A stretch of 64,000 nucleotides of DNA, from positions 10,257 to 74,256 of the forward strand of contig MWCM01000004.1 of the NCBI GenBank assembly GCA_002070055.1, in the 5' to 3' direction. This document shows positions 1-43,900 of this stretch, one piece after another. The first letter of the stretch is position 1. Every line of letters starts with the position of its first letter. Position numbers and translations under genes: made by a program. This DNA is from a bacterium ADurb.Bin212 (GTDB taxonomy: Bacteria; Patescibacteriota; UBA1384; XYA2-FULL-43-10). The notes beneath the pieces were generated by a model. That model saw only the letters and a program-made list of their open reading frames with translations. It searched no databases and was not told the DNA's origin.

Positions 1-730
1 CCTTTTTGGGAATTCCCCGAGTCATCCAGTTGTCGTAAATGTCGGGATCGACAAATTCCTGGGGAAACTCTTGTAGGAAGCCATTTTTTACATTTTTTGC
101 AGTGATAAGTCTCATTCCAGACTCAGTTTTTTGTGGTGTTTTTCCCCTATAATCAATAAATCTAACGTGCTTCACTAATGGACATGTTTCCCAATCTTCT
201 CCGGGATTGTTAAAAATGCTATTAATGTAAGATTCGAAAAGTTCACGAGCGTTTTGCAAATTTTTTTCTGTATTGTTTTTTGCTTTTTCAATTTTCTCAA
301 ATGCTTCATCCAATTTTTTAACAATTCTTTTTTGCTCATTAAGCGAATCTGGGATATTGACGCTTATCGCGTAGACATCGTTGCGATTAATGCCCGGCTT
401 AACCCCTTTTGCAAGTCCTTGTAAATTCAGGGTCTGTAATAGACGATAGATAAACTGTAAATCGTATTTCTTTTTATCAAAAGTTACGTAGTATGTTACA
501 TCTAATGGCCAAAATTTTCCCTTAGTTAATGTTAATTCTCCTGCCGAGCCTTTTCTGCCAACAATAATACTCCCATTGTCATAATAATATGTATCGCTCC
601 AACTTTTGATTCCATTAGCACCGTACACTGGAAACTTCCCATCAGAAATTCGCTCAGATTTTGGTAATGGTTTACCATACTCTAGCTTTAATATTTCGCC
701 AAGCTTTTTTATTCGCCAATTATCGTTCAT
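1..730 (-). CDS. hsdS: Type I restriction-modification specificity subunit HsdS (N-terminal target-recognition domain; 3' part lies beyond the window start)
   Basis: By my translation the minus-strand ORF starts at ATG 730..728, overlapping the stop of the upstream gene by 11 nt. It runs without a stop to position 1. It reads MNDNWRIKKLGEILKLEYGKPLPKSERISDGKFPVYGANG... then ...ITAKNVKNGFLQEFPQEFVDPDIYDNWMTRGIPKK, which is a typical HsdS target-recognition domain pattern. The ORF track did not list it because it runs off the edge. Confidence 0.7.
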   Translation of the reverse strand, partial: MNDNWRIKKLGEILKLEYGKPLPKSERISDGKFPVYGANGIKSWSDTYYYDNGSIIVGRKGSAGELTLTKGKFWPLDVTYYVTFDKKKYDLQFIYRLLQTLNLQGLAKGVKPGINRNDVYAISVNIPDSLNEQKRIVKKLDEAFEKIEKAKNNTEKNLQNARELFESYINSIFNNPGEDWETCPLVKHVRFIDYRGKTPQKTESGMRLITAKNVKNGFLQEFPQEFVDPDIYDNWMTRGIPKK

Positions 731-2150
731 AAGCCCAACTGTCATATTTTATATGTTTTCTTTGGTTGATATATTCAATCAACATATCGTAAAACATTTC
801 TTTCTCTTGGTTACCTTCTATTTTTACCCCAAACCTATTTTCCTTGCGATATTTGTAATTTCTCCATGAAGCGAGAATTGTTTCTTCATCTGGAATATTA
901 AGGCCAAGAGGTCTCAACATAATTGAAATGTAGTATTCATATGGTATACGCCTATTGTCTCTTTTGAGGTCATAGTGTTTAATTTTGACGAGTTTGCCAC
1001 TTAAAGTATCCATATTTGAAAATGAATGAATAGCAATTTTAACAGCGATATCGAATATTTTCTGAGCATTGTCAGAAAAAGCTTCCTCGTAGTAGCCACC
1101 CTTTTTGAGTTCAGTTAATTGATATCTTGAGCCTTTCAGTAGTTCTCTCAAGTTAATTATCCCGCACCCTATAGCCCTCTCATAAATATCTTTCAAAAAA
1201 AGATTTATATAACCAGAATGACCAAATGCCCCAGTTAGGCTCTGATCTTCACACTTAAAACTTTTAATAATATTATCTACAGTATCAAGAAGAGCTTTTT
1301 TGTTATCAAAGTAATAAGGTGCAATTGAAAAGAACTTATCGATATAACCTGAAAAATCAGCATCAGGTCCATATTTATGGTGAAAAACATGCTTTAAGTT
1401 CGAATAATCGCCTACAATAATAACCGAGTCAAACCCAAATTTATTCTCGTGTTCTTTTTCAAAATAAGCGGACAATATGTTTAATATCCTGAAAATATGT
1501 TCGGGGTCTATTCTGTCTAAATCATCTAACACAAGAACACTTTTTTTATTGCCCTTTTGTTGAATAATTTTATCTCGAAGTAAATTACTAATGTAGTCTT
1601 CTTCAGATATGTCCTTTTCTTTCAGTTTTTCAATGTATTTCTCTGCGAGCCCTTTCTCTCCTTTTTCGAACTCTTTTTTAAAATCTTGATATTCTTTATC
1701 CATTTTGAGCAAACTCTTTAAAGGTCTGCCAAGCTTACCTGAAATACCAAAGATAGGATTAGGCAATGTATCAAGAGTTGATAAAGTTGACTGTAATATT
1801 GAATTCAGGGAGTTACTTTTTCTATACCATGAGAAAAAAAGAAGGGCAGAATCCTTGATCCCTTGTATCTTTTTAGTCGTGAGAATATCGTTGTTCTTGT
1901 CTAACAGCTCGATAAGAATGTCATATTTTATCAGCTCAATGATATCTTCATTGTTGCTTATTTCATAGTTAACTGGAAATAAGTGAAAAACCTCATAGTT
2001 ATCTGTGTTTGAATCAAAAAATTCTTTCAAAAAATACGTCTTACCAATTCCAAATTTACCAGAAAAAAATATCCTAGAATTATTTTCCGTATCTAAAAAT
2101 AATTTGAAATTCTCTTGTACTGTATCAATTGGAATTAATATATCGGGCAT
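720..2150 (-). CDS. KAP-family-like P-loop NTPase inserted between hsdM and hsdS
   Basis: Walker A is GKFGIGKTYFLKEF. Walker B followed by the KAP-signature arginine is VLVLDDLDRIDPEHIFRILNIL. There are no obvious TM insertions. The start overlaps the hsdM stop by 1-3 nt and the stop overlaps the hsdS start, so the three genes are co-transcribed. Confidence 0.6.
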   Translation of the reverse strand: MPDILIPIDTVQENFKLFLDTENNSRIFFSGKFGIGKTYFLKEFFDSNTDNYEVFHLFPVNYEISNNEDIIELIKYDILIELLDKNNDILTTKKIQGIKDSALLFFSWYRKSNSLNSILQSTLSTLDTLPNPIFGISGKLGRPLKSLLKMDKEYQDFKKEFEKGEKGLAEKYIEKLKEKDISEEDYISNLLRDKIIQQKGNKKSVLVLDDLDRIDPEHIFRILNILSAYFEKEHENKFGFDSVIIVGDYSNLKHVFHHKYGPDADFSGYIDKFFSIAPYYFDNKKALLDTVDNIIKSFKCEDQSLTGAFGHSGYINLFLKDIYERAIGCGIINLRELLKGSRYQLTELKKGGYYEEAFSDNAQKIFDIAVKIAIHSFSNMDTLSGKLVKIKHYDLKRDNRRIPYEYYISIMLRPLGLNIPDEETILASWRNYKYRKENRFGVKIEGNQEKEMFYDMLIEYINQRKHIKYDSWAYER

Positions 2151-2151
2151 A

Positions 2152-3627
2152 TTATTTTACTTTCAGAATTTTCTCAACCTCTTTTAGGGATAGATTTGCT
2201 CGTATGTCTAATTTTCTAACGTCTTCCAAGATCTTTTCAGGCGGCAGTATTAAACTACCTTCCCTATTATTCGGATTTTTAACCGAGAGATCAAATGTTT
2301 TTTGGCTGATGTCGGAAACATCGATTGTCCAAGAATTTTCTGAATCGGTTTTTGTTTTTTGTAACTCTAGGAATTCCGCAAGATCTTTTTCGGTTAAAGG
2401 ATTTGTTTTGCCAAGATTACGATCGAGGTTTAATTGGTAATACCAAATCTTTTGAGTTGGTGCACCTTTTTCAAAAAACAGCACAACAGTCTTAACCCCC
2501 GCCTGAAAAACTTTTGCTGGAAGATCAAGGATTGTATGAACATTGCAGTTTTTTAGTAACTCTTGGCGCAGACTTGAGGCATCGCCGTTAGATAAAAAGG
2601 TATTTTTTATAACAATGCCTGCCTTGCCCCCGGCTTTCAATTTTTTAATATAATGCTGTAAAAAGAGATAGGCAGTTTCGCTACTTTTAATGGGAAAGTT
2701 TTGCTGGACTTCACTTCGTTCTTTTCCGCCGAAAGGAGGATTAGTTAAAATAATATCGTAGCGGTCTCTTTCTTGAATGTCAGCGATATTTTCTGAAAGT
2801 GTATTCGCATGAACTATGTTTGGCGCTTCAATGCCGTGTAATATCATATTCATAATGCCGATAATGTAAGGAAGCGGTTTTTTCTCGATGGCATAAAAAG
2901 TTTTTTTTTGAAGTATTTCTATGTCTGAAGTTGATAGATTTTTACTGTTTTTAAGGTAATCAAATGCCTCAACCAAGAAGCCAGCTGAGCCAACGGCGCC
3001 ATCGTAAATTTTGTCACCAATCTTTGGGCCGACTACTTTAACAATCGTGCGAATCAGAGGACGCGGGGTATAGTATTCTCCACCATTACGACCTGCATTA
3101 CCCATGTTTTTGATTTTGCCTTCGTATAGGTGAGACAGCTCATGCTTCTCTGATTGTGATCGAAAATGCATTTGATCGACGATATCTAAAATATTGCGAA
3201 GTGTATAACCAGAATGAATTTTATTTCTAATTTCTGAAAATATTTCACCGATTTTGTATTTAATGGTATCTGGTTCGGCATCCGTTTTGAATTTTCTAAG
3301 ATATGGGAAGAGTTTGTGATCGACAAAATCTCGCAAATCATCACCTGATAGAGCCTTATTATGGTCCAATTTACCATCAGCGGTTTTGGGTGCAGCCCAA
3401 ACATCCCAGCGGTATTCTATATTTAAAATAAATTTATATTCTTTGCCGGCAAGAAGAGCTTCTTTTTGTTTTTGTTCTTCGAGATCGTTCAAATACTTAA
3501 GGAAAAGAATCCAAGATGTTTGCTCAACGTAATCTAGCTCACTTGAAACGCCAGCATCTTTCCGAAGGGTATTGTCAATATTCTTAAATGTTTGTTCAAA
3601 ACTAATTTTTGAATTTGTGTCGAGCAT
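2152..3627 (-). CDS. hsdM: Type I R-M N6-adenine DNA methyltransferase subunit HsdM
   Basis: The N-terminus is HsdM-like (LDYVEQTSWILFLKYLNDLE). Motif I region is GEYYTPRPLIRTIVKVV...GDKIYDGAVGSAGFLVEA. The catalytic motif is ILTNPPFGG. Length is 491 aa. Confidence 0.9.
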   Translation of the reverse strand: MLDTNSKISFEQTFKNIDNTLRKDAGVSSELDYVEQTSWILFLKYLNDLEEQKQKEALLAGKEYKFILNIEYRWDVWAAPKTADGKLDHNKALSGDDLRDFVDHKLFPYLRKFKTDAEPDTIKYKIGEIFSEIRNKIHSGYTLRNILDIVDQMHFRSQSEKHELSHLYEGKIKNMGNAGRNGGEYYTPRPLIRTIVKVVGPKIGDKIYDGAVGSAGFLVEAFDYLKNSKNLSTSDIEILQKKTFYAIEKKPLPYIIGIMNMILHGIEAPNIVHANTLSENIADIQERDRYDIILTNPPFGGKERSEVQQNFPIKSSETAYLFLQHYIKKLKAGGKAGIVIKNTFLSNGDASSLRQELLKNCNVHTILDLPAKVFQAGVKTVVLFFEKGAPTQKIWYYQLNLDRNLGKTNPLTEKDLAEFLELQKTKTDSENSWTIDVSDISQKTFDLSVKNPNNREGSLILPPEKILEDVRKLDIRANLSLKEVEKILKVK

Positions 3628-3655: not shown

Positions 3656-3928
3656 TTATTTGCTCCTTAATAACTCTTCTATTTTCTCAATAAATCTTTT
3701 ATAACTCACGATTTCCTTATCAATCTTTACCCCACCGGACCAGAGGTATAGCCAATCACCGTTTTTTGCTGTCATCTTTGCATCCGGATGTTCGTGGTAT
3801 TCTCTAACCAAATTCTCGGGACCGTTTCGCAGTAATCTTAAAATCTCTTTTGAAAAGTCATTGTCTTGGTCTTGCAGTGCTTTGGTAAAATCCGTAATCA
3901 ATTCGTTGAGGTTGCTGTAACTTTTCAT
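3656..3928 (-). CDS. hypothetical small protein (90 aa) immediately upstream of hsdM in the same gene string
   Basis: ORF sits 28 bp upstream of hsdM on the same strand. No recognisable motif. Confidence 0.4.
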   Translation of the reverse strand: MKSYSNLNELITDFTKALQDQDNDFSKEILRLLRNGPENLVREYHEHPDAKMTAKNGDWLYLWSGGVKIDKEIVSYKRFIEKIEELLRSK

Positions 3929-4073: not shown

Positions 4074-4439
4074 CTAATACTTGTCCAATATCGCTTTCAT
4101 CTCCTTTAGAATTTTCTTCTTATAAACTCCGATGGCGTAATCCAGATGCAATTTCATTCTTTCAGGAGAGTTTTTCGCCGACAGCTTTTTATCCGGTTGG
4201 GACTTTACTTCTTTTGCAATCCCTCGAATAAACTTTTTGTCGAAAGCATCCGGCTTTTGGGCTTCTTTCTCAATATCCAACCACCAGCGAAGCTCGGCTA
4301 TCAATTTGGCAAAGCTTGCCCCGTCCTTATGATTAAGTATTACGCCGTTTTTTCTCTTGACAGTGGCGATTGCTTTCTTTATGTCTTCCTTTGTCGGTTC
4401 GGAAATATCCGGTTTGAACGCTTTTTGATCTTTCATCAT
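4074..4439 (-). CDS. hypothetical protein (121 aa), lysine-rich
   Basis: ORF between the PLD nuclease and the 90-aa ORF, same strand, tightly spaced. No recognisable domain. Confidence 0.4.
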   Translation of the reverse strand: MMKDQKAFKPDISEPTKEDIKKAIATVKRKNGVILNHKDGASFAKLIAELRWWLDIEKEAQKPDAFDKKFIRGIAKEVKSQPDKKLSAKNSPERMKLHLDYAIGVYKKKILKEMKAILDKY

Positions 4440-4444
4440 ACTCC

Positions 4445-5161
4445 TTAACTAAATAGGGTAAATATCGCTCTCATACATTTTAACGATAATACAATCAGAT
4501 TGGAAATAACAGCCGGCAACTTGCTGATAAACTTAGGAACGGAAATCTTCGGGATCATAATTTTTAATCTTGGTCGAAAACTAAACTTTTTCCTGTCAAC
4601 CAAACTTCGATATAACCTCTCATACTGGTATTTATAACCCTCGGCCAGCTTTTTATTAAGCCCCAAGTGGTCCATGACCTGTTTGGCCATGTCTTCGTCT
4701 TCGCTTCGGCGCATCATCTCCCGGCTTTCTCTTTGCGATAGGATATTCAAACTCCCATCCCAAAGGATCTTGCGATCGATAACCGCTGTCTTGGCATGAA
4801 CCAGCCCGGGCAAGGGGATTATGCAGGCTCCCAGCTCCTCGTAATCTTTCAGCGCCGCCTTAATTTCGCTCCTCACAATCAACTCGTGATCTTCAATCGA
4901 CCTGGTGAAGATAAACACGGCAATATTGCGATATTTGAGCTGTTTAAATATCCGGCTGAAATATTCCGAGCGATATTTGGAGATAAAGGGTGAATAAATT
5001 ATGACCTCCTTCTCCGCCAAAAGGAGATCGCGAGAGAAAGATTTATAAAATGATTTTTCATCATATAGATCGAGCTTTCGCGATTCTCTATACTTTTCGG
5101 CATCGATTTCATTTTGCCTGTTTTCAAAATGCCTTTTTAGCGTCGGTGATAATGTTTTCAT
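4445..5161 (-). CDS. PLD-family (HKD motif) nuclease
   Basis: HKD motif is LVHAKTAVIDRKILWDGSLNILS (HxK-x4-D-x6-GSxN). The most plausible start is ATG 5161..5159 (MKTLSPTLKRHF), preceded by AAGGAGG at the right spacing. The ORF-track extension to 5308 is probably non-coding leader and would run into the divergent HTH gene. Confidence 0.7.
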   Translation of the reverse strand: MKTLSPTLKRHFENRQNEIDAEKYRESRKLDLYDEKSFYKSFSRDLLLAEKEVIIYSPFISKYRSEYFSRIFKQLKYRNIAVFIFTRSIEDHELIVRSEIKAALKDYEELGACIIPLPGLVHAKTAVIDRKILWDGSLNILSQRESREMMRRSEDEDMAKQVMDHLGLNKKLAEGYKYQYERLYRSLVDRKKFSFRPRLKIMIPKISVPKFISKLPAVISNLIVLSLKCMRAIFTLFS

Positions 5162-5224
5162 ATTCCTCCTTATAATTATTTTGTTAATCTGGATTTTTAG
5201 GTTTGAAAGTGATATATTCTGGAT

Positions 5225-5440
5225 ATGACAGCCAAACACAGCGGGAATATTTACAAAGGTCTCGGCGACAAGCTTAAGAAGTATCGGGAAGCGGCCAAGA
5301 TGACGCAAGCCAAGGTAGCCGAATTAGCGGGTATCCATGTTAACTATTACGCTAGAATGGAAAGGGGCGAGGAAAATCCGACACTGGAAGTGTTGCATAA
5401 GCTAAAGGAAGTACTGAAAATAAAGTCAGATTTAGTCTGA
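5225..5440 (+). CDS. XRE-family helix-turn-helix transcriptional regulator
   Basis: HTH core is MTQAKVAELAGIHVNYYARMERGEENPTLEVLHKLKEVL. It is divergent from the PLD nuclease/hsdM gene string with a ~60-bp shared intergenic region. Confidence 0.75.
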   Translation: MTAKHSGNIYKGLGDKLKKYREAAKMTQAKVAELAGIHVNYYARMERGEENPTLEVLHKLKEVLKIKSDLV

Positions 5441-5517: not shown

Positions 5518-7035
5518 TCAGGTCCACCAAATTTCATTTTTCGCAATTTCTTCCGCTTCGCTCGGCGCTTCGCGCCTCGCTTGCGGTGGCAAATTCAAGA
5601 GTAAATTGTATTGTTTTTGAAAATTCATATTGAGTTTTCCGCCCAGAAGAATGCGGTTCGAGCCGGCGGTTTTAAGAAAATTTCTCATAGCGGAGAAATT
5701 TTTTGTTTTAACAAAATTTTCAGCTTGGTTGGCGTCATAAATCCAATTTTTCAAGAGTTCGAGCCAATGATTTCCCTTTCGCTCAAAATCTCTTAACTTT
5801 TCTTCAAACTCGGCTTTTTGCTCGATAAGTTTGTTTTTCTTTTCTTTGAATTCCTCTAGCTCCAAAGCTCCGTCTAAATATGCGTCAGAAAGCCGATCAA
5901 GCCGAGTTTTGATATATTCTATTTTCTCTTTTAGATTTTGAGCGAAAACAGCCGACGAGTGGTTTTCTTCATTTTCCCACTCTTTGATCTGTAGCATATA
6001 CTTTTCTTTCCACTCGTCGGGTAAAGAAACTGTTTGACAAAGTTCTTCTATCTGTTGCGCTAAAACTTCTTCACGAACGAACTTTCGCTCGGTGCAATTT
6101 TGGGTTTTGCTTTTATGGGTGCAACGATAGTAAACATACTCTCTACCACTTGGCTTAAACTTTCTCTCAGCAGTTATGGCATAACCGCAACTTCCGCATT
6201 TGGCAAAACCCAAAAACTTTAGTTCTCGTTCAGTTCGTTTCTTGCGGGGTTTAGAGTGGTCTTTTAGCGCAACTTGGATTTTGTCAAAAGTTTCTTTTGA
6301 AATCATTGGCTTATGGGAACCTTGATAGAGTTCGCCATCATAACTTATGACGCCGTAATAAAATGGCTTTGTTAAAATCTTCTGTATAGATGACAAAGCC
6401 ATTTTATTGCCATCTTTGCCAACCAAGCCAAGAGAAAACATTTTTGCTTGAATTTTAGTTAGCGAAAACTCGCCAGAGGCAAAAAACTCCAGCGTTTTCT
6501 TAACCAAAGGAAATGTCTTTTTGTTTGGCTCAATAGTTCTAAGTCTTGGCTCGTTGAAGTAACCGAGTGGAGCTTTGCTTGGCAATTCTCCTCGGCGAAG
6601 TTTTTGCCTGATTCCTCGCAAAATGTTTTCTCTTAAATTGTCGGTGTAATATTTGGCTTGGCCAAAGGCAACGCTTAACATAAACTTTCCTTGCGGAGTT
6701 GCCTCAAACCAAAAGGTTGGGAATTTTAGCGAAGTAATTTTTCCGGTATCGACTAAATAGATAACTCTTCCGCCATCAACAGAGTTTCGGGCTAAACGAT
6801 CTGGGTTCCAGGCTAAAATTCCCGAAGCGTTGCCTTTTTCAATTTCCAAAAGCATTTGGTTAAAAATCGGTCGCCCAGGCTCCTTGGCGGTTCGACTTTC
6901 GGTAAATTCACGGACGATCATTAAGTCATTTTGTCGGGCAAAATCGCGTAGCTCTTGGAGCTGGGCTTCAATAGACAAAATTTGCCTTTCTTCCTCTTCG
7001 GAAGATTTACGGCAATAGATAAAGTACTTTTCCAT
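5518..7035 (-). CDS. large serine recombinase (resolvase/invertase catalytic domain, recombinase domain and zinc-ribbon)
   Basis: The N-terminus FIYCRKSSEEEERQILSIEAQ carries the catalytic Ser context. The recombinase domain contains GYFNEPRLRTIEP. A Cys cluster CGSCG...CTHKSKTQNC forms a zinc ribbon. It ends in a coiled-coil C-terminus. AAGGAGGG precedes the ATG. Confidence 0.85.
   Translation of the reverse strand: MEKYFIYCRKSSEEEERQILSIEAQLQELRDFARQNDLMIVREFTESRTAKEPGRPIFNQMLLEIEKGNASGILAWNPDRLARNSVDGGRVIYLVDTGKITSLKFPTFWFEATPQGKFMLSVAFGQAKYYTDNLRENILRGIRQKLRRGELPSKAPLGYFNEPRLRTIEPNKKTFPLVKKTLEFFASGEFSLTKIQAKMFSLGLVGKDGNKMALSSIQKILTKPFYYGVISYDGELYQGSHKPMISKETFDKIQVALKDHSKPRKKRTERELKFLGFAKCGSCGYAITAERKFKPSGREYVYYRCTHKSKTQNCTERKFVREEVLAQQIEELCQTVSLPDEWKEKYMLQIKEWENEENHSSAVFAQNLKEKIEYIKTRLDRLSDAYLDGALELEEFKEKKNKLIEQKAEFEEKLRDFERKGNHWLELLKNWIYDANQAENFVKTKNFSAMRNFLKTAGSNRILLGGKLNMNFQKQYNLLLNLPPQARREAPSEAEEIAKNEIWWT
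5521..5660 (-). repeat. Repeat copy A: the 3' end of the intact serine-recombinase gene (last ~45 codons), homologous to copies B and C
   Basis: The reverse complement of 5521-5660 aligns at ~85% identity with 7150-7286. The shared encoded peptide is ...NRILLGGKLN(M/I)NFQKQY.LL.NLPPQAR....EAE....NE.WW. Confidence 0.8.
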
Positions 7036-7156
7036 AATTCCCTCCTTAAATTTTGTCTATTAACCAAATGCTTTTATGTACCGACAATTTATTGAAAATT
7101 TTGTTCCCGCCGGCTCTAAAGAATTACATTCTTTTCTGTGCTTCGCACAGAAACCG

Positions 7157-7334
7157 CATTTTGCTGGGCGGAAAACTCAATATTAATTTTCAAAAACAAT
7201 ATGAATTACTCTCGAATTTGCCACCGCAAGCGAGAGCCATTGGCTCGAGCGAAGCGGAACAAAAAGCAATAAATGAAAAATGGTGGTGTGTTTTGAACGA
7301 AGCTCGAACTTTTTTCGAAAAAAATACTCAATAA
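7157..7334 (+). pseudogene. orphan C-terminal fragment of a serine recombinase gene
   Basis: It encodes RNRILLGGKLNINFQKQYELLSNLPPQARAIGSSEAEQKAINEKWWCVLNEARTFFEKNTQ*, homologous to the last ~45 residues of the intact recombinase. No upstream recombinase body is present, because the sequence 5' of 7150 is unrelated. Confidence 0.6.
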
Positions 7335-7344
7335 ATTTTCGCTC

Positions 7345-7458
7345 GCGCGGCCGTGAAGGGGCGTGGGGAGGAAACGGCCGCGCTCGCTCAAAATGTTTTC
7401 AAAAATGCAATTTGCTCGTGCGTGCGCAGGAAGGGGTGTGGGGAGGGAATGCGCACGC
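7345..7458 (+). other. GC-rich twin-hairpin module; it recurs in reverse orientation at ~10671-10784
   Basis: Hairpin 1 is gcgcggccg / 21-nt G-rich loop tgaaggggcgtggggaggaaa / cggccgcgc. Hairpin 2 is gcgtgcgc / 23-nt loop aggaaggggtgtggggagggaat / gcgcacgc. The module is ~70% GC in a ~35% GC genome. Confidence 0.6.
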
Positions 7459-7561
7459 TCTCGCTTTTTGGGGCGGGGCGAAAAAATAGCAGAAAAGGTA
7501 AGCTTATGCTAATTATAGTATGTAGTATCAAAATTAGCAATTAGCTTATACTGATGATAAA

Positions 7562-7780
7562 ATGAGTAAAGAAAAAGTTCTAGAAAAATTTGGCATCAGA
7601 GTTCGACAAGAACGGATGAAATTGGGTTTATCGCAAGAAGCTTTGGCAGACAAGGCTGGAGTACACCGAACTTATGTCGGCATGATTGAAAGAGCAGAAA
7701 AAAATATTACTTTGCTCAACATTGAAAAAATTGCCAAAGCATTAAAAATAAGTATAAATAATTTAACAAAGTGGGACTGA
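7562..7780 (+). CDS. XRE-family HTH protein, likely an R-M controller (C-protein)
   Basis: HTH is LSQEALADKAGVHRTYVGMIERAEKNITLLNIEKIAKAL. It sits 3 bp upstream of the REase gene. A dyad GCTAATT-N17-AATTAGC (7508-7538) upstream is a possible operator. Confidence 0.65.
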   Translation: MSKEKVLEKFGIRVRQERMKLGLSQEALADKAGVHRTYVGMIERAEKNITLLNIEKIAKALKISINNLTKWD

Positions 7781-7783
7781 ATT

Positions 7784-8668
7784 ATGAATAAATTATGGTG
7801 CAAAGATTGCGAAAAAGACTTTTTCTTTAGTGCATTGAAATTGGCAACTCCAGAACAATTATTTTACGTTACTAGCGACCAGAAGTATTGTGCTTATTGG
7901 CCGAAAAAATACGGCGACGTAAAATCGACTCTCCAAAGCAGAAACTCTCTTATTGGAAACTACACTGAAAAATGGGGTGTTGAGCTTTTTAGAGAAATTG
8001 CTGAAAAGCTTGGTGGCTTTTCGGTTCAGGGCGTTATTTGTGAAGAAATTGGTCTAACTCGACAATCTGCTGCCGATGTGGCGATTTGCAAAACAAAGAA
8101 TGTGATTCAAAAGCCAGAAAACATTTTGATGATTTTTGAAATTAAGATGTCGATAACTTGGAACTGGGAGCTTAAGCAACGAGGCAAGGAATATGATCTG
8201 GTATGTCTTGGCGATTACAACACTCACCAAGGAAATCCAAGTTTGCTAAGATCTGATTCAATGTTGAAAGCTATTGGGAAAAGTATCAATATTCGAGTTT
8301 CAAGTTTTGCGGCTAGTAAAATTCCAATCGTGATAATTGGTAATACACCGATCACAAGCTCCTATTATAAAAAAGTTGATCACTTGAAACAAAGCGGAAT
8401 TATTCAAGGTTTTTGGTCCGTCAATCCCGAGCCATTGGACAATAACAAAGAAAGCTTAGAAAAAACGAAGCTCGGTGGTTTCATCAGAATTAACAAATAT
8501 GACGAACTTGTAAAAATGACGCTCGATCTAGGTGCAGACGATAGAGAATTCTTTTCAAGCATGCAAAACAAACAAAGACTTGGAGAAATAATTAAAATTG
8601 CAAATCAGGAAGAAACCGAAGAAGCGAAAGCTCAAAAATTTCTTGAACTTATTAGGGAGGTAGAGTAA
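7784..8668 (+). CDS. putative Type II restriction endonuclease (PD-(D/E)xK-like)
   Basis: It lies between the C-protein-like gene and the methyltransferase gene. A candidate catalytic core is ...AADVAICK...ILMIFEIKMS (D...E-x-K). There is no match to other families that I can recognise. Confidence 0.45.
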   Translation: MNKLWCKDCEKDFFFSALKLATPEQLFYVTSDQKYCAYWPKKYGDVKSTLQSRNSLIGNYTEKWGVELFREIAEKLGGFSVQGVICEEIGLTRQSAADVAICKTKNVIQKPENILMIFEIKMSITWNWELKQRGKEYDLVCLGDYNTHQGNPSLLRSDSMLKAIGKSINIRVSSFAASKIPIVIIGNTPITSSYYKKVDHLKQSGIIQGFWSVNPEPLDNNKESLEKTKLGGFIRINKYDELVKMTLDLGADDREFFSSMQNKQRLGEIIKIANQEETEEAKAQKFLELIREVE

Positions 8669-9574
8669 ATGGCAGAAGTTAAGACACGAAAAGGAACAGA
8701 AACCAGCTCTTTCGGTACACCTGGAAGAAGCAATCATGATGCTTCCAAATTTTATGCAAGCAAAATGTATAGTGGTTTGAATAACGGCAACGGAGATGTT
8801 GAATATCGCGAAAATCCGATCAAAGAAGAATATATCAACAAAATATTCTGCAAAAGTAGCGAGAAAATGTCGGAGCTTCCCAATGACAGTGTTCATATTA
8901 TGATCACTTCCCCGCCATATAATGTTGGAAAGGATTATGACAAGGATTTGAGTCTGGACGACTACCGAAAACTCCTATACAGAGTTTTCAAAGAAACATA
9001 CCGAGTGCTAGTTCCTGGCGGTAGGGCTTGCATAAACATCGCCAACTTAGGCAGGAAGCCATATCTTCCTTTGCATAGTTATATTATTGAAGACATGGCA
9101 GAAATCGGTTATATCATGCGAGGTGAAATTATTTGGGATAAAGGTTCAAGTGCCAGTCCTTCAACCGCTTGGGGTTCGTATCTTAAAGCTAATAATCCCG
9201 TCTTGCGTGATGTTCATGAGTATATACTTATTTTTTGCAAAGAAACTTATTCGATGCAAAACTTGCATAAAAAGAAAAGTACAATCACTAAAGAAGAGTT
9301 TATGGAATATACCAAAAGCGTCTGGAAGTTTGCCGCTCAAAGGGCTTCAAAGGTTGGACATCCGGCGCCTTTTCCTCTCGATCTTCCATCGCGCCTGATT
9401 AAGCTATACACTTTCGAAAATGATGTTGTTCTCGATCCGTTCACTGGCGCCGGAACGACAAATGTTGCCGCCTTAGAACTCAATCGTAGGCATATTGGTT
9501 ATGATGTTGATAAAAAGTATTGCGATTTAGCAGAAAACAGAATAATGCAATGCAAAAGTAAATTACCATTATAA
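8669..9574 (+). CDS. DNA methyltransferase, beta-class (motif IV SPPY precedes motif I FxGxG); likely N4-cytosine or N6-adenine
   Basis: Motif IV is IMITSPPYNVGKDYD. Motif I near the C-terminus is VVLDPFTGAGTTNVAALE. Length is 301 aa. Confidence 0.85.
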   Translation: MAEVKTRKGTETSSFGTPGRSNHDASKFYASKMYSGLNNGNGDVEYRENPIKEEYINKIFCKSSEKMSELPNDSVHIMITSPPYNVGKDYDKDLSLDDYRKLLYRVFKETYRVLVPGGRACINIANLGRKPYLPLHSYIIEDMAEIGYIMRGEIIWDKGSSASPSTAWGSYLKANNPVLRDVHEYILIFCKETYSMQNLHKKKSTITKEEFMEYTKSVWKFAAQRASKVGHPAPFPLDLPSRLIKLYTFENDVVLDPFTGAGTTNVAALELNRRHIGYDVDKKYCDLAENRIMQCKSKLPL

Positions 9575-9978
9575 TGGAAAATAAACGCAAACATTTAGAG
9601 TTTATTCAAAACGTTATCAGTCGAATGGCTGGCAATCTATTTTTTCTTCGTGGCTGGACTATAACGTTAATTGCTGCATTACTTGCTCTCTTTGCTAAAG
9701 GTGGAAACCATACCTATATACTTTATTTTCTGATTGTTTTGATAATAGTATTTTGGATTTTAGACGGATTTTTTTTATCTCAAGAACGACTTTTTCGTGA
9801 CCTCTACAATGATGTCCGCTTACTAAAAGAAGAAAAAATAGATTTCAACATGGATGTTTCGCCTTATAAAAATTACAAAAAGAATACACTAATCTTTTCT
9901 ATGTTTTCTTCGACTTTATTAATATTTTACATTCCACTTGTCATCACTGCCTTGGTTATTATCTATTTAGTAAAATAA
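9574..9978 (+). CDS. small integral membrane protein (3 predicted TM helices), translationally coupled to the methyltransferase
   Basis: The start ATG overlaps the methyltransferase stop (taATGg). Hydrophobic segments are WTITLIAALLALFA, YILYFLIVLIIVFWILDGFF and LIFSMFSSTLLIFYIPLVITALVIIYLV. Confidence 0.5.
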   Translation: MENKRKHLEFIQNVISRMAGNLFFLRGWTITLIAALLALFAKGGNHTYILYFLIVLIIVFWILDGFFLSQERLFRDLYNDVRLLKEEKIDFNMDVSPYKNYKKNTLIFSMFSSTLLIFYIPLVITALVIIYLVK

Positions 9979-9986
9979 GAATTATT

Positions 9987-10643
9987 ATGGCTAAAAAAAT
10001 TTTTGTGAGTTATAAGCACAATGATCAGAGTGTTAAACCGCTAAAACAATATCTAACAGCAACTGCCAGAGATTATGTCGACGAACTTGAGAAGTATTTT
10101 GAAGAGGGAGACTTTATCTACAAAGGAGAGGATGTCGACAACGACCTGAGCAATCTGACAGACGGAAGTATCGCTCAAATCCTTTACGACAAAATATATG
10201 ACAGCTCGGTAACAATAGTTTTAGTTTCAAAAAATATGAGAGATTATAAAACCGAGAAGGATCAATGGATACCTCGAGAAATCTCTTACTCCCTTACTGA
10301 AAATAACAGGGGTGAAAGGATTAGCGCTACCAATGCTATGCTCGCTGTAGTTTTACCGGATGAAAATGGCGATTACTCATACATCGTCACACATCACCCA
10401 TGCGTGACACGCTGGAATACAGCTTCGTTATTCAACATTCTCAACCAAAATATGTTTAACAGGAAAAGTAAAAACACCTATCAATGCACTGATTGTTACG
10501 GGCAACACCATACTGGAAAAGACCATTCATATATTCACCCGGTCAAATGGGATGATTTTATTTTGGATATCGATGGTTATATAAACTTAGCTACGGAAAT
10601 TCAACAGAATATTGATGAATACGATATAGCAAAAGAATTATAA
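9987..10643 (+). CDS. TIR-like domain protein (ThsB / DUF1863 / MTH538 type) with a Cys/His-rich C-terminal extension
   Basis: The N-terminus is KIFVSYKHND, the TIR strand-1 pattern. The central region is SVTIVLVSKNM...QWIPREISYSL, matching the DUF1863 S..VLIG...W..YEI pattern. The C-terminus is HHPCVTRW...YQCTDCYGQHHTGKDHSYIHP, a possible zinc site. It starts 8 bp after the TM-protein stop. Confidence 0.6.
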   Translation: MAKKIFVSYKHNDQSVKPLKQYLTATARDYVDELEKYFEEGDFIYKGEDVDNDLSNLTDGSIAQILYDKIYDSSVTIVLVSKNMRDYKTEKDQWIPREISYSLTENNRGERISATNAMLAVVLPDENGDYSYIVTHHPCVTRWNTASLFNILNQNMFNRKSKNTYQCTDCYGQHHTGKDHSYIHPVKWDDFILDIDGYINLATEIQQNIDEYDIAKEL

Positions 10644-10648
10644 TTCCG

Positions 10649-10920
10649 CCCCCGCCCCAAAAAGCGAGAGCGTGCGCATTCCCTCCCCACACCCCTTCCT
10701 GCGCACGCACGAGCAAATTGCATTTTTGAAAACATTTTGAGCGAGCGCGGCCGTTTCCTCCCCACGCCCCTTCACGGCCGCGCGAGCGAAAATTTATTGA
10801 GTATTTTTTTCGAAAAAAGTTCGAGCTTCGTTCAAAACACACCACCATTTTTCACTTCGTGCCAATTCTTCCGCTTCGCTCGAGCCTTCGGCTCTCGCTT
10901 GCGGTGGTAAATTCAAGAAT
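10649..10920 (-). repeat. Repeat copy C: the GC-rich twin-hairpin module plus a recombinase 3'-end fragment, an inverted copy of B
   Basis: Positions 10649-10867 are nearly identical to the reverse complement of 7480-7262. Positions 10790-10920 encode, on the minus strand, ...LPPQARAEGSSEAEELARSEKWWCVLNEARTFFEKNTQ*. The upstream body position is occupied by the APH-like kinase gene. Confidence 0.85.
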
Positions 10921-40932: not shown

Positions 40933-43900
40933 CTATTTGGACCATTTATCTCTAAGCCTTCCTACCCAAGAGAAGGTGTCTTCAAGAGATTTTAGCACAA
41001 CCTGCAGAAGTGATTTTTCTTTCGGCGGAGTAATCAAGCTAATATCATCGGAATATGCCACATTCCCCACTTTATCAATGGATTTGATACGAAAATGATA
41101 CGCCGAGTTTGGTTTTAGGTCCGGCAAAATAACTACATGTGAAGAGTTTAGTGATAAAATTGCTTCCGTTGTGTCTGTATACTCTCCGCCGATTCCCATC
41201 GCAAATTCTATTTGTGATGTTGCTGGCTCATCTGTGTCCCAAGATACTATCGCCTGATATTTAATAGACTCGCCGCTACCGGTAGAAGCAACTTCTGATT
41301 TAACATCAATGATCTTCGGCGCGTCAACATCTGTGGCAGTAGTAAATGAAGAGATAGCGGAAGTCGCTAAATTACCGAATTTATCTTTTGATAAGACTCG
41401 ATAATTATATGTGGTCTTAGGCTCAAGACCGATTAAGGAGACTGAATGCAAGTTTGTGGAATCAGCTTTTCCTTGAGTTCCAGATAAAATACTGTTTACT
41501 CCAAACTCAACATTGGAATCAGCCGAAACATTTGTTAACCATTCGACTGTTACAGAATTATAACCAACTTCTCTAACCATTACACTCGAAATAACCGGCA
41601 TAGCAAAGGTCTCGAAAGTATAAATATCGGAAACCGTTGTATTGCCATCAGCATCTGTTGTCTTGATTCTTAAATAATATTTAACTCCCGAACTAAGATT
41701 CTCCAGTTTAAAGGTGTGATCTGTATTCATGTTATTATCTGTTAGCTTAATGGCGCCTGTTGGAGTACTGTCTCCAGAAATTGCACTGTTTGAATACTCA
41801 ACTTCCGTTGTAGCAAGTTTTGAAGTAGACCAAGAAGTAACCGCGGAATCAATAGTGATGTCAGAGATCTCCATACCCTGAATTAATAGTGGTACTCTCT
41901 CTGGAGTAGTAAAAGACAAAACCTCGGAGTGCCCCGCAATCTGGATCTCGTTCTTGGAGAATGCTTTGAAGTAATACTTTGCCGAAGGATTCAGATTATA
42001 TAACCAAATCTCGTGGTTGTATGTAAGTTCAGGGCTTGCAGCAATCTGTACACTCGAACCATCCTTGGTCGTCATGTCCGCTCCGCTGTTAATTTCACCA
42101 GTTGAGTGGGCAACATTGGAGTCGGCTAGCTGGTCTGTGTTCCAAGTAATTTTTGCCCTTACTCCAGAATCTTGTCTCCAACCGAAAAGCTCTACCTGAG
42201 GTTCAGCTGTCACATCGGGAGCTGCCCCCGGTTGAGACGAAACTGGTCCAGCCGGTAAAGAGATATTGTGATTAGCATCTTCGCTAGTAACTTTGTAGGC
42301 GTATAAGTTATTTGTGTCTAAGTTGATATCCAAATATCCATTTTTGGTAGTGGTATCGATTTTTTGATAATTAATATTATCTGTAGATCTCCACACATTG
42401 TAATGATCTACATTAGCCGCATCATCCCAAATCAAGACTAGGCGATATTTGGAGGTAGCAATATTTGAGGCATCTTTAATTTGCAGATTAGCGGGTATTG
42501 GTCGTATCTCTGTGCTGATCTCAGCATCATTGAAATACATATCTCTAAACTTTATGTAAACATGACTAGCGCCAGTGATATCAAAATCAACCTTACTGGT
42601 TGAGTAATTTTCCCAATTCGCTCCTTCAAAATTTTCTTTGGTAGAAATTATCATTTCGATCGGATTAGAATCGTCATCGGCATTAATTGTGAGATTAGCA
42701 ATAGTATTGTTGGTAGCGTCAATGACTAATGTTGCGTTGGATGGATTTTTAGTATCAATACGCATGTTTGGCGATTCAGAGTTAGAACTCCCCTGACCAG
42801 CTACTGCTACATTAACTCTAACTTTAAAAGAGGTAGCCAAATACTGGCCGTCAAAATCGGCATTCATATCAATATATGCAACATGTGAAACCGGTTCATC
42901 AAAATTCCCGGATAGAATGCCTTTTTCTCCACTGATAGCAGAATCTGTAATTGGGTTCCAAGACAGATTACTGGGATTAAAGTAAGAAAAGGTAGTAGTG
43001 GATTCAAACCTTAGCTTAAAATCTACTCTTACCTTGCCTGGGTTTTCTGGGTCATTTCGATCAAGCTGTGTGGCTGATACGTCTATCGGAGCAATCGCCT
43101 TCGGTACCCCATCCATTGTAATTGAAAAATCAGAAAGGATCTCACTGTTGTCGCTTCGCCTAAATCCTGCTTTAAGTTTAAACCAATATTGCTGTTCGTT
43201 GGTAAGCCCCGAGATATCTTGAGTTTGCCACATGCCGGCACCATTAATGATTGGCCGAGGCGTAGCAAGTTCTACAAAGTCAACACCATTGCTAGATTGA
43301 AATATATGGATTTTGGCATCGGTATTTGCCGGGACATCAATAGGATTTTTCCAAGAGAGTGAAAGCTTCTGATCACCAGGGCCAACCGTAAAGTTATTGT
43401 TTGCGTTGTCTGTGTGATCATCATCCAAGTGGGTTGATCCTGGCACGTGAGTTGCCACAGCAATAGTCTCGGGAGGATTGGTCACAGGAAAAACGCCGCT
43501 TTTAACCAAATTCGTGCCCGGCCAGTTTCCAGCGATATGATCGTCCTTAAGAAGATCGCTGATAGCATAAGGCGAAGTTGGCGCAATACACTCAGAAACA
43601 TAGATTTTCCTTCTGCCCCCTTTATAGAGCTTAAAGATCTCATCATCTCCAGTAAAAGTGTGGGTACCGGCAGAGCTAGCTGGAAAAGCAAAACAATGGC
43701 TAGTGTCAGCGGCATCTCCAGTATCTCGGAAATACGGTAGTTCTTGATTGACTAGATAATTTCCGGATCCATCGTCTGCGCTACGATCCGGCGACCAAAA
43801 ATAGATATAGCCATAGCCGGTATCGGGATTTGCGGCGTAATCTGTTTTTACATAACCTAAAACATCGTAAGCAGTAACTGTTAGCGAAACCGGGCCACTT

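What the first reader, a model, noticed from the sequence alone, without database searches (positions are those of the whole stretch)
1..3627. KAP-like P-loop NTPase wedged between hsdM and hsdS of a Type I R-M operon
The three genes overlap by 1-11 nt (hsdM stop/NTPase start at 2150-2152; NTPase stop/hsdS start at 720-730), so they are translationally coupled. The NTPase carries Walker A GKFGIGKT and the KAP-diagnostic hhhhDDLDR. It lacks the TM insertions common in KAP proteins. Genes inserted between hsdM and hsdS in other bacteria (PrrC/RloC anticodon nucleases, Abi proteins) are conditional suicide or back-up defences that sense inactivation of the R-M complex. A KAP-type NTPase in that slot suggests an analogous but distinct R-M-guarded effector. 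No hsdR is visible in the window.
Basis: partly seen in the sequence, partly recalled or inferred. Interest (0 to 1): 0.65.

Follow-up and report, generated by a model that had tools for sequence, protein, structure and literature searches.

The report
KAP ATPase gene inside restriction operon
A gene for a soluble KAP-type ATPase sits tightly packed between the methylase and specificity genes of a complete Type I restriction-modification operon on a mobile defence island. Its relatives recur in that slot but also occur alone, so it is most likely an untested stand-alone anti-phage gene lodged in the operon, not a proven guard of it.

Summary
On the minus strand lie hsdM (2152-3627), a 476-aa KAP-family P-loop NTPase (720-2150) and the start of hsdS (ATG at 730). 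Its Pfam KAP_NTPase score is 48.9 bits against a cut-off of 20. It carries Walker A GKFGIGKT and Walker B VLVLDDLDR, and has no membrane segment.

Two details need correction. hsdM and the NTPase gene are 1 nt apart, not overlapping. hsdR exists just beyond position 1, on an identical public contig, so the operon is hsdM-KAP-hsdS-hsdR with uniform codon composition.

The protein belongs to a discrete clade of about 1,300-1,800 clusters at 50% identity, found mostly in Patescibacteria and Bacteroidota. Among full-length relatives with enough flanking DNA, 12 of 27 lie beside co-directional Type I genes. The usual order is M-KAP-S-R, across at least two or three HsdM lineages.

Embedded and stand-alone members interleave in the tree. 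The stand-alone ones sit among defence-type genes (Abi_C, SIR2, AAA_15/21, HNH, NACHT). No effector domain is recognisable, and the C-terminal 200 residues match no solved fold.

Best reading: an autonomous KAP-type defence candidate co-expressed with the R-M system. This kind is already catalogued (PADLOC PDC-S20, guilt-by-embedding) and other KAP proteins have been shown to be anti-phage. A PrrC-like guard role is possible but unsupported.

The parts
2152..3627 (-). hsdM, the Type I R-M methyltransferase subunit (491 aa) and first gene of the four-gene operon
   Evidence: Pfam N6_Mtase 3e-60, HsdM_N 3e-9. PADLOC MTase_I 3.7e-152 over its full length.
2151..2151 (-). 1-nt spacer between the hsdM stop (TAA 2154-2152) and the KAP start (ATG 2150-2148)
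   Evidence: Read directly from the sequence. Homologous loci have 1-22 nt here.
720..2150 (-). KAP-family P-loop NTPase gene (476 aa, 55.9 kDa, soluble)
   Evidence: Pfam KAP_NTPase 48.9 bits against a cut-off of 20. Weak PADLOC PDC-S20 hit, 3e-10. Exact protein is named 'KAP family P-loop domain protein [bacterium ADurb.Bin212]' in nr. AlphaFold model pLDDT 77, pTM 0.67.
2037..2060 (-). Walker A motif GKFGIGKT (residues 31-38)
   Evidence: G31, G34, G36 and K37 are invariant in 35 homologues.
1596..1868 (-). About 90-residue soluble helical insert (residues 95-185) between Walker A and Walker B, where many KAP proteins carry membrane helices. It contains the conserved KLGRPL loop at residues 139-144.
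   Evidence: Helices 98-121 and 144-177, with low pLDDT at 114-145. No hydrophobic segment. K139, L140, G141 and P143 are conserved at 90% or more.
1512..1538 (-). Walker B / KAP signature VLVLDDLDR (residues 205-213)
   Evidence: L206, D209, D210 and R213 are invariant.
723..1319 (-). C-terminal region (residues 278-476): a helical bundle followed by a three-stranded sheet and a helix. No known fold or catalytic motif.
   Evidence: Separate model with pLDDT 83, pTM 0.84. Best Foldseek PDB match has E 0.77. No invariant Asp, Glu or His in this region.
720..730 (-). 11-nt overlap of the KAP stop (TAA 722-720) with the hsdS start (ATG 730-728)
   Evidence: The same tight junction (-26 to +11 nt) occurs in eight homologous loci and in the 74%-identical relative.
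1..730 (-). 5' part of hsdS (first 243 codons), continuing beyond the window. hsdR follows off-window.
   Evidence: Methylase_S 1.7e-17. Specificity_I 8.6e-41. Full 380-aa hsdS and 801-aa hsdR lie on the identical contig L001.
5518..7035 (-). Context: a large serine recombinase (505 aa) about 1.9 kb upstream of hsdM, marking the mobile island
   Evidence: Resolvase, Recombinase and Zn_ribbon_recom domains. A serine recombinase also directly abuts hsdM in the M-KAP-S-R locus L165 and lies next to hsdM in L029.

Best explanation
The window carries the first three genes of a four-gene operon, hsdM-KAP-hsdS-hsdR. The operon lies on a mobile defence island of a Patescibacteria-like bacterium.

The KAP gene encodes a soluble ATPase of the KAP branch of STAND/ORC-like P-loop proteins. 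It belongs to a discrete, uncharacterised clade of single-gene defence-island proteins. These often lodge inside Type I R-M operons, preferentially just upstream of hsdS, and are then co-transcribed with them.

The most likely mode of action is inferred, not shown. The protein would be an autonomous second-layer anti-phage switch. A phage-derived cue would be sensed through the conserved insert or the C-terminal region. ATP binding and hydrolysis at the intact Walker A/B site would then drive a conformational or oligomeric change, as in the ring-forming relatives RdrA and QatA. That change would block infection through the still unidentified activity of the C-terminal region.

Embedding gives co-expression and co-transfer with the R-M system, not obligate dependence on it.
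For: Identity and catalytic competence:
- Pfam KAP_NTPase above threshold.
- Invariant K37, D209, D210 and R213 across 35 homologues of 41-74% identity.

Operon:
- 1-nt gap, 11-nt overlap and 4-nt overlap at the three junctions.
- Third-position GC is 0.29-0.32 for all four genes, against 0.43-0.50 for the flanking genes.

Defence association:
- HsdR, HsdM and HsdS are the top three neighbour families in 80 species-representative loci (15, 14 and 12 loci). No other partner recurs.
- Stand-alone relatives sit beside DUF6119, Abi_C, AAA_21/AAA_15, SIR2_2, HNH and NACHT genes.
- The window island also holds a PLD nuclease (MkoC/DrmC-like), a Type II R-M with a C protein, and a ThsB-like TIR protein.

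Autonomy:
- 15 of 27 well-flanked full-length relatives have no Type I gene within 4 kb.
- Embedded and stand-alone members interleave in the tree.
- Embedded members partner with HsdM proteins of 54-73%, 35% and 24-31% identity to the window's.

Precedent:
- KAP NTPases fused to C-terminal regions of unknown function protect against phage in a Walker-B-dependent way (PMC13552941).
- QatA is a KAP NTPase that binds DNA and forms 7-8-mers (PMC13279940).
- Genes embedded in Type I R-M are enriched for defence functions, and KAP-like PDC-S20 models exist in PADLOC.

Fold:
- Matches to Orc5/Cdc6, RdrA of RADAR, BrxC of BREX and a plant NLR.
Against: - No experiment exists for any member of this clade.
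- Defence is inferred from neighbourhood and from distant KAP relatives. Identity to PDC-S20, PifA and QatA is confined to the P-loop core (best E 3e-11).
- No effector domain, partner gene or trigger is identified, so the mechanism is generic.
- The marked preference for the hsdM/hsdS slot is not explained by simple hitch-hiking. The KAP-hsdS junction is conserved and tight across several Type I lineages.
- Stand-alone genomes might still carry a Type I system elsewhere. This could not be checked.
Confidence: 0.55

Rival explanations
1. R-M guard. The KAP protein is held inactive by the HsdM/HsdS complex and fires when a phage anti-restriction protein (Ocr-, ArdA- or Stp-like) disables it. 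It would be functionally analogous to PrrC or PARIS but built on a KAP ATPase.
For: - Recurrent embedding in Type I operons: 12 of 27 well-flanked full-length relatives, with M-KAP-S-R in at least 14 loci.
- The two closest relatives checked, at 74% and 59% identity, are also embedded.
- The tight, often overlapping KAP-hsdS junction is conserved.
- The four genes share one composition.
- RM guardians are an established concept (PMC12707154).
Against: - Over half of well-flanked relatives lack any nearby Type I gene, and they interleave with embedded ones at 57-60% identity.
- PrrC, by contrast, is almost exclusively embedded.
- The partner R-M systems belong to different lineages, which argues against a co-adapted protein interface.
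- No HEPN, nuclease or other toxin domain is present.
- There is no embedded-specific subclade.
Confidence: 0.2
2. Accessory subunit or regulator of the restriction enzyme. The ORC/BrxC-like ATPase would modulate DNA recognition, methylation timing or HsdR activity. One example would be delaying restriction after the island transfers to a new host.
For: - Whole-protein fold matches to Orc5/Cdc6 and to BrxC, the ATPase of the methylation-based BREX system.
- Position between the two methyltransferase-complex genes and translational coupling to hsdS.
- The island carries conjugation-type genes (TraG/VirB4-like, M23 peptidase) and a serine recombinase.
- One relative is fused to a DUF1643 domain.
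Against: - The fold matches are weak (TM about 0.3) and generic for AAA+/STAND ATPases.
- Many relatives are far from any R-M genes.
- Canonical Type I systems need no fourth subunit (established knowledge).
- Positions other than M/S also occur, such as after hsdR or before hsdM.
Confidence: 0.1
3. A gene of the mobile element with a non-defence role, such as exclusion, maintenance or addiction. It would sit in the R-M operon only because such operons tolerate insertions.
For: - Type I loci with KAP also hold many other embedded genes: Fic, RhuM, ORF6N, YgjP, DUF3800, DUF5677, PIN_12 and AAA_15.
- Serine recombinases recur nearby.
- Older literature links KAP NTPases to plasmids (PMC3387028).
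Against: - Only 2 weak hits among 72,556 plasmids and none among 50,697 phage records.
- The neighbours of stand-alone members are defence genes, not transfer or replication genes.
- The ATPase site is strongly conserved.
Confidence: 0.1

Closest known systems
Single-gene KAP P-loop NTPase anti-phage proteins (EF_KAP and three gut-metagenome KAPs; PLoS Biol 2026, PMC13552941)
   Same: - KAP NTPase domain followed by a C-terminal region with no recognisable fold.
- A single gene.
- Found near serine recombinases and in defence contexts.
- Walker B is essential in EF_KAP, and the motif is invariant here.
   Different: - EF_KAP has two membrane helices, one of them inside the NTPase domain. This protein has none.
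- The C-terminal regions are unrelated.
- Here the nearby recombinase is a large (505 aa) serine recombinase, not a small one.
- Embedding in Type I R-M was not described there.
- This clade is untested.
PADLOC PDC-S20 and other 'guilt-by-embedding' phage-defence candidates (Payne et al., bioRxiv 10.1101/2024.01.29.577857)
   Same: Single-gene candidates defined by being nested in BREX, DISARM or Type I R-M operons. 18 of 23 members of this family hit a PDC-S20 model.
   Different: The hits cover only about 120 residues around Walker B, with E no better than 3e-11. This clade is therefore not the one modelled. What PDC-S20 contains could not be read from the stored supplements.
PrrC / EcoprrI (anticodon nuclease guarded by a Type IC R-M system)
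   Same: An NTPase gene nested in a Type I operon and co-expressed with it. This is the conceptual model for a back-up defence.
   Different: - PrrC is an ABC-type ATPase with a HEPN nuclease. This protein has neither.
- PrrC is almost always embedded, whereas this family is embedded in under half of cases.
QatA (QatABCD) and PifA (F plasmid)
   Same: KAP-family NTPases with roles in phage defence or exclusion. [quoted passage not shown]
   Different: - QatA works within a four-gene system with QueC-like and TatD proteins. No such partners are present here.
- Sequence similarity is marginal: PifA matches 6 of 23 members (best 6e-7) and QatA 1 of 23.
RdrA (RADAR), BrxC (BREX), ORC/Cdc6 and NLR nucleotide-binding modules
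   Same: Overall layout of a P-loop base, a helical domain and a small C-terminal domain, by Foldseek (E 8e-5 to 1e-3).
   Different: Low TM-scores (about 0.3) and 10-13% identity. This is a resemblance of architecture only, not family membership.

Membership tests
KAP family P-loop NTPases (Pfam PF07693) | Profile match above Pfam's gathering score | tested here: met
   48.9 bits against a cut-off of 20, E 7e-13, residues 25-276 on profile positions 21-221 of 293. Precomputed PF07693 is recorded for most homologues.
KAP family P-loop NTPases (Pfam PF07693) | Walker A GxxxxGK[ST] and Walker B of the form hhhhDDxDR | tested here: met
   GKFGIGKT at 31-38 and VLVLDDLDR at 205-213, invariant in the family alignment.
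KAP family P-loop NTPases (Pfam PF07693) | Transmembrane helices inserted within the NTPase domain. This is frequent in the family but, from my knowledge of the original description, not universal. | tested here: not met
   The best 19-residue hydropathy mean is 0.9. The insert at residues 95-185 is a soluble helical hairpin.
PrrC/RloC anticodon nucleases | N-terminal ABC-type ATPase (AAA_15/AAA_21-like) | tested here: not met
   No ABC, AAA_15 or AAA_21 hit for this protein at E<=0.01, although the same library detects these domains in neighbouring genes of other loci.
PrrC/RloC anticodon nucleases | C-terminal HEPN ribonuclease domain | tested here: not met
   No Pfam hit in residues 278-476. 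No invariant His or acidic residue there. No structural match.
PrrC/RloC anticodon nucleases | Near-obligate embedding in a Type I R-M locus and silencing by it | tested here: inconclusive
   12 of 27 well-flanked full-length relatives are embedded. Silencing is not testable with these tools.
PADLOC PDC-S20 candidate | Full-length match to a PDC-S20 profile | tested here: not met
   38 bits, covering residues 151-275 only, on profile positions 130-247 of 450. The best among 23 family members is E 2.9e-11.
Complete Type I R-M system (the host operon) | hsdM, hsdS and hsdR all present and intact | tested here: met
   hsdM and the 5' part of hsdS are in the window. Full hsdS (380 aa) and hsdR (801 aa; ResIII, Helicase_C, EcoEI_R_C) are on the identical contig.
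STAND / ORC-Cdc6-like switch ATPases | Nucleotide-binding domain, helical domain and winged-helix domain, with nucleotide-dependent oligomerisation | tested here: inconclusive
   Foldseek hits to Orc5, RdrA, BrxC and NRC3 at E 8e-5 to 7e-3 but TM about 0.3. The C-terminal domain alone matches no winged helix. Oligomerisation is not testable here.

The most novel reading that the evidence does not exclude
The KAP ATPase is a true functional partner of the Type I enzyme. Either it is a new kind of RM guardian that senses anti-restriction proteins through the HsdM/HsdS complex, or it is an ORC/BrxC-like fourth subunit that changes how a Type I system recognises or handles foreign DNA. Either would explain why it is translationally coupled to hsdS in several unrelated Type I lineages.
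Probability: 0.2. Interest if true: 0.7.

Novelty: new member of a known kind. Interest (0 to 1): 0.4.

Why it matters
If confirmed, this would add a compact, membrane-free KAP ATPase clade to the anti-phage repertoire. The clade is common in Patescibacteria and Bacteroidota, phyla whose immunity is poorly studied.

It would also provide a clean natural test of a general question: are genes nested in restriction operons merely co-travellers, or do they work with the enzyme? The same protein family exists both inside and outside Type I operons, so the two states can be compared directly.

As it stands, the locus fits an already published pattern: guilt-by-embedding, and KAP NTPases acting as defence proteins.

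Tried and rejected
- Housekeeping ATPase: rejected. NCBIfam gave only a 15-bit Orc1/Cdc6 hit, and Pfam gave only sub-threshold AAA_22, NB-ARC and AAA_16 hits.
- PrrC-like ABC/HEPN architecture: rejected.
- A conserved partner or effector gene: none found. After the Hsd genes, no neighbour family recurs. The next one is a methylmalonyl-CoA-mutase-like gene, syntenic in related Bacteroidota only.
- Solved relatives by sequence: none.
- Fold of the C-terminal region: no match, best E 0.77.
- The promoter and terminator scan was no better than shuffled sequence.
- Phage records gave no homologue. Plasmid records gave two weak Bacteroidota hits.
- The composition of PDC-S20 could not be recovered from the truncated supplements.
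- Hits to MADS mad8 were weak (2 of 23 members), and the paper's text gives no domain for MAD8. This lead was dropped.
- No tRNA gene marks the island edge.
- No paper in the library describes a KAP gene between hsdM and hsdS.


Full report
**What is in the window**

Three co-directional genes occupy the minus strand of positions 1-3627.
- The 491-aa product of 2152-3627 is a Type I methyltransferase subunit. It matches Pfam N6_Mtase at 3e-60 together with HsdM_N, and PADLOC MTase_I at 3.7e-152 over its full length.
- The 476-aa product of 720-2150 matches Pfam KAP_NTPase at 48.9 bits against a gathering cut-off of 20 (E 7e-13, residues 25-276).
- From the ATG at 730-728, an hsdS reading frame runs off the window edge. 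It matches Methylase_S at 1.7e-17 and PADLOC Specificity_I at 8.6e-41.

There is no membrane segment. The most hydrophobic 19-residue window averages 0.9 on the Kyte-Doolittle scale.

The junctions were only partly as described. The NTPase stop (TAA 722-720) does overlap the hsdS start by 11 nt. The hsdM stop (TAA 2154-2152) is separated from the NTPase ATG (2150-2148) by one base.

**Beyond the window edge**

The exact protein occurs on a public contig, GCA_022705485.1 (locus L001). Its first 7,762 bases are 100% identical to window 7762-1. That contig continues past window position 1 with:
- the rest of hsdS (380 aa);
- an 801-aa hsdR (ResIII, Helicase_C and EcoEI_R_C domains) whose ATG overlaps the hsdS stop in an ATGA;
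- a PDDEXK_1 nuclease-fold protein, a DUF2254 protein and a 342-aa protein;
- an M23 peptidase and a TraG/VirB4-like ATPase.

The missing hsdR is therefore an artefact of where the window was cut.

The four genes hsdM, KAP, hsdS and hsdR have third-position GC of 0.32, 0.30, 0.29 and 0.32. The genes on either side have 0.43-0.50. Tight junctions and uniform composition indicate one four-gene operon acquired as a unit. A simple promoter and terminator scan added nothing beyond shuffled controls.

The surrounding island is mobile and defence-rich. It holds:
- a large serine recombinase (5518-7035);
- a PLD-family nuclease with MkoC/DrmC-like PADLOC hits (about 4445-5161 by the public gene call; the maximal ORF runs to 5308);
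- a Type II module with a C-protein, a 294-aa ORF (7784-8668) with no family hit that may be the endonuclease, and an N4/N6 methylase (7562-9574);
- a ThsB-like TIR protein (9987-10643).

A source database names the protein as coming from 'bacterium ADurb.Bin212'. Most close relatives come from Patescibacteria.

**The protein family**

One search found 1,993 homologues at E<=1e-3. The full-length relatives are 470-490 aa long. An exhaustive profile search of 1.84 billion cluster representatives found 1,772 at E<=1e-3, of which 1,284 were at E<=1e-30. The family is thus a discrete clade and does not merge into the wider KAP superfamily.

In an alignment of 35 members (41-74% identity to the query) these residues are invariant:
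- the Walker A residues G31, G34, G36 and K37;
- the Walker B residues L206, D209, D210 and R213;
- further residues including P216, H218, R221 and N224.

The ATPase site is therefore under strong constraint.

Many KAP proteins carry membrane helices between Walker A and Walker B. This clade has instead a soluble insert of about 90 residues with a conserved KLGRPL loop at residues 139-144.

The AlphaFold model has pLDDT 77 and pTM 0.67. It resembles, weakly and only in overall layout, Orc5/Cdc6, RdrA of RADAR, BrxC of BREX and a plant NLR (Foldseek E 8e-5 to 7e-3, TM about 0.3).

The C-terminal 199 residues were modelled separately (pLDDT 83, pTM 0.84). They form a helical bundle plus a small sheet that matches nothing in the PDB (best E 0.77). 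They have no invariant acidic or histidine residues. No effector activity can be read from the sequence or the model.

**Genomic context of relatives**

I fetched 80 loci from species-representative genomes and 80 from metagenomes. I then located Hsd genes with tblastn, using HsdM, HsdS and HsdR queries drawn from several of these loci.

- An unsupervised clustering of all neighbouring ORFs in the genome set showed that the three most recurrent neighbour families are HsdR (15 loci), HsdM (14) and HsdS (12). Nothing else recurs apart from lineage-specific synteny.
- Among full-length relatives with at least 2.5 kb on both sides, 12 of 27 have a co-directional Hsd gene within 4 kb.
- Among relatives that align only over the N-terminal two-thirds, mostly Bacteroidota, the figure is 8 of 42.
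- The dominant order is M-KAP-S-R (14 loci, plus truncated M-KAP and M-KAP-S cases). S-KAP-R, R-KAP, M-S-R-KAP and KAP-M-S-R also occur.
- The KAP stop and hsdS start are within -26 to +11 nt of each other in eight loci.
- The two closest relatives I looked up are also embedded. The 74%-identical one has the order M, PIN_12, KAP, S, R with the same 11-nt overlap. The 59%-identical one has the order serine recombinase, M, KAP, S, R.
- The partner systems are not one lineage. Their HsdM proteins are 54-73%, about 35% or 24-31% identical to the window's.

From general knowledge, a random gene would lie this close to a Type I system only about 1% of the time, so the association is real. I could not compute that background with these tools.

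**Why I do not adopt the guard interpretation as the best one**

- In a neighbour-joining tree of 150 family members, embedded and stand-alone genes interleave throughout. Within the window's own subclade, at 57-60% identity, L002, L004 and L084 are embedded. L005, L006 and L007 are not, despite 3.4-7 kb of sequence on each side.
- The stand-alone genes sit among typical defence-island genes: DUF6119, Abi_C, AAA_21/AAA_15, SIR2_2 and HNH. In a Segatella copri replicon they sit beside NACHT, DUF2971 and a DEAD-box helicase.
- The Type I loci that host KAP also host many other nested genes: Fic, RhuM, ORF6N, YgjP-like peptidase, DUF3800, DUF5677, SEC-C, PIN_12 and an AAA_15 ATPase. These operons are general landing sites.
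It carries an ABC ATPase and a HEPN nuclease, neither of which is present here. RloC is described as not linked to R-M systems.

The evidence therefore favours a self-sufficient single-gene module that often rides inside Type I operons.

**What is already known**

- Payne and colleagues used exactly this logic. Genes nested in Hachiman, BREX, DISARM and Type I R-M operons nominated 145 phage-defence candidates, now in PADLOC.
- The window protein and 18 of 23 family members hit the PDC-S20 models, but only weakly and only around Walker B. The clade is related to that candidate and is not the one modelled.
[quoted passage not shown] Protection required Walker B and the C-terminal region. Those genes were found by their linkage to serine recombinases.
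- QatA of QatABCD is a KAP NTPase that binds DNA and forms 7-8-mers.
- I found no paper describing a KAP gene between hsdM and hsdS.

The locus is therefore a new family within a known kind.

**Mechanism, and how sure I am**

Shown:
- a four-gene operon;
- an intact and conserved ATPase site;
- no membrane anchor;
- no recognisable effector;
- a recurrent but non-obligate association with Type I R-M;
- defence-island neighbourhoods.

Inferred: the protein acts as an ATP-driven switch. It would sense a phage cue through its insert or C-terminal region and block infection through an activity that remains unidentified. Embedding would serve co-expression and co-transfer.

I give this reading 0.55. 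The residual puzzle is the strong preference for the slot just upstream of hsdS across unrelated Type I lineages. That keeps a guard model (0.2) and an accessory-subunit model (0.1) alive. A non-defence role for the mobile element gets 0.1.

**Verdict**

The finding is a reasonable experimental candidate but not a surprise to a specialist. Interest 0.4.

Noticed in passing
window 5524-5658, 7152-7478, 10650-10918: There are three copies of the 3' end of the large serine recombinase gene. Copy A is the true gene end. Copy B is inverted relative to A, and an ORF at 7053-7334 encodes a look-alike C-terminal peptide. Copy C is inverted relative to B (269 nt, 96%). B and C bracket the Type II R-M/TIR cassette. 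This suggests an invertible segment or nested integrations.
   Followed up: partly
window 7562-10643: A second defence cluster lies here: an HTH C-protein (7562-7780), a 294-aa ORF with no family hit that may be the endonuclease (7784-8668), an N4/N6 DNA methylase (8669-9574) and a ThsB-like TIR protein (9987-10643).
   Followed up: partly
window 4445-5308: A PLD-family (PLDc_2) protein with PADLOC hits to MkoC (1.5e-11) and DrmC lies upstream of the operon. Two small ORFs of unknown function follow it (4074-4439 and 3656-3928). The latter ends 28 nt before hsdM.
   Followed up: no
L001 10567-14835 (beyond window position 1): Directly after hsdR come a PDDEXK_1 protein (251 aa), a DUF2254 protein (817 aa) and a 342-aa protein, then an M23 peptidase and a TraG/VirB4-like ATPase. 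A 61%-identical PDDEXK protein also lies 2.7 kb downstream of the KAP homologue in L024.
   Followed up: no
L049 6416-8431 (also protein P0260): One KAP relative is fused to an N-terminal DUF1643 domain (671 aa). It sits between hsdS and hsdR in a Bacteroidota Type I locus.
   Followed up: no
L165 5103-6515; L029 1588-2913; window 5518-7035: Large serine recombinases lie directly beside or near the hsdM-KAP-hsdS-hsdR module in several unrelated loci. This hints that the module travels as a recombinase-borne cassette.
   Followed up: partly
window 40933-51255: A very long ORF of 3,440 aa lies on the minus strand. It was not examined.
   Followed up: no
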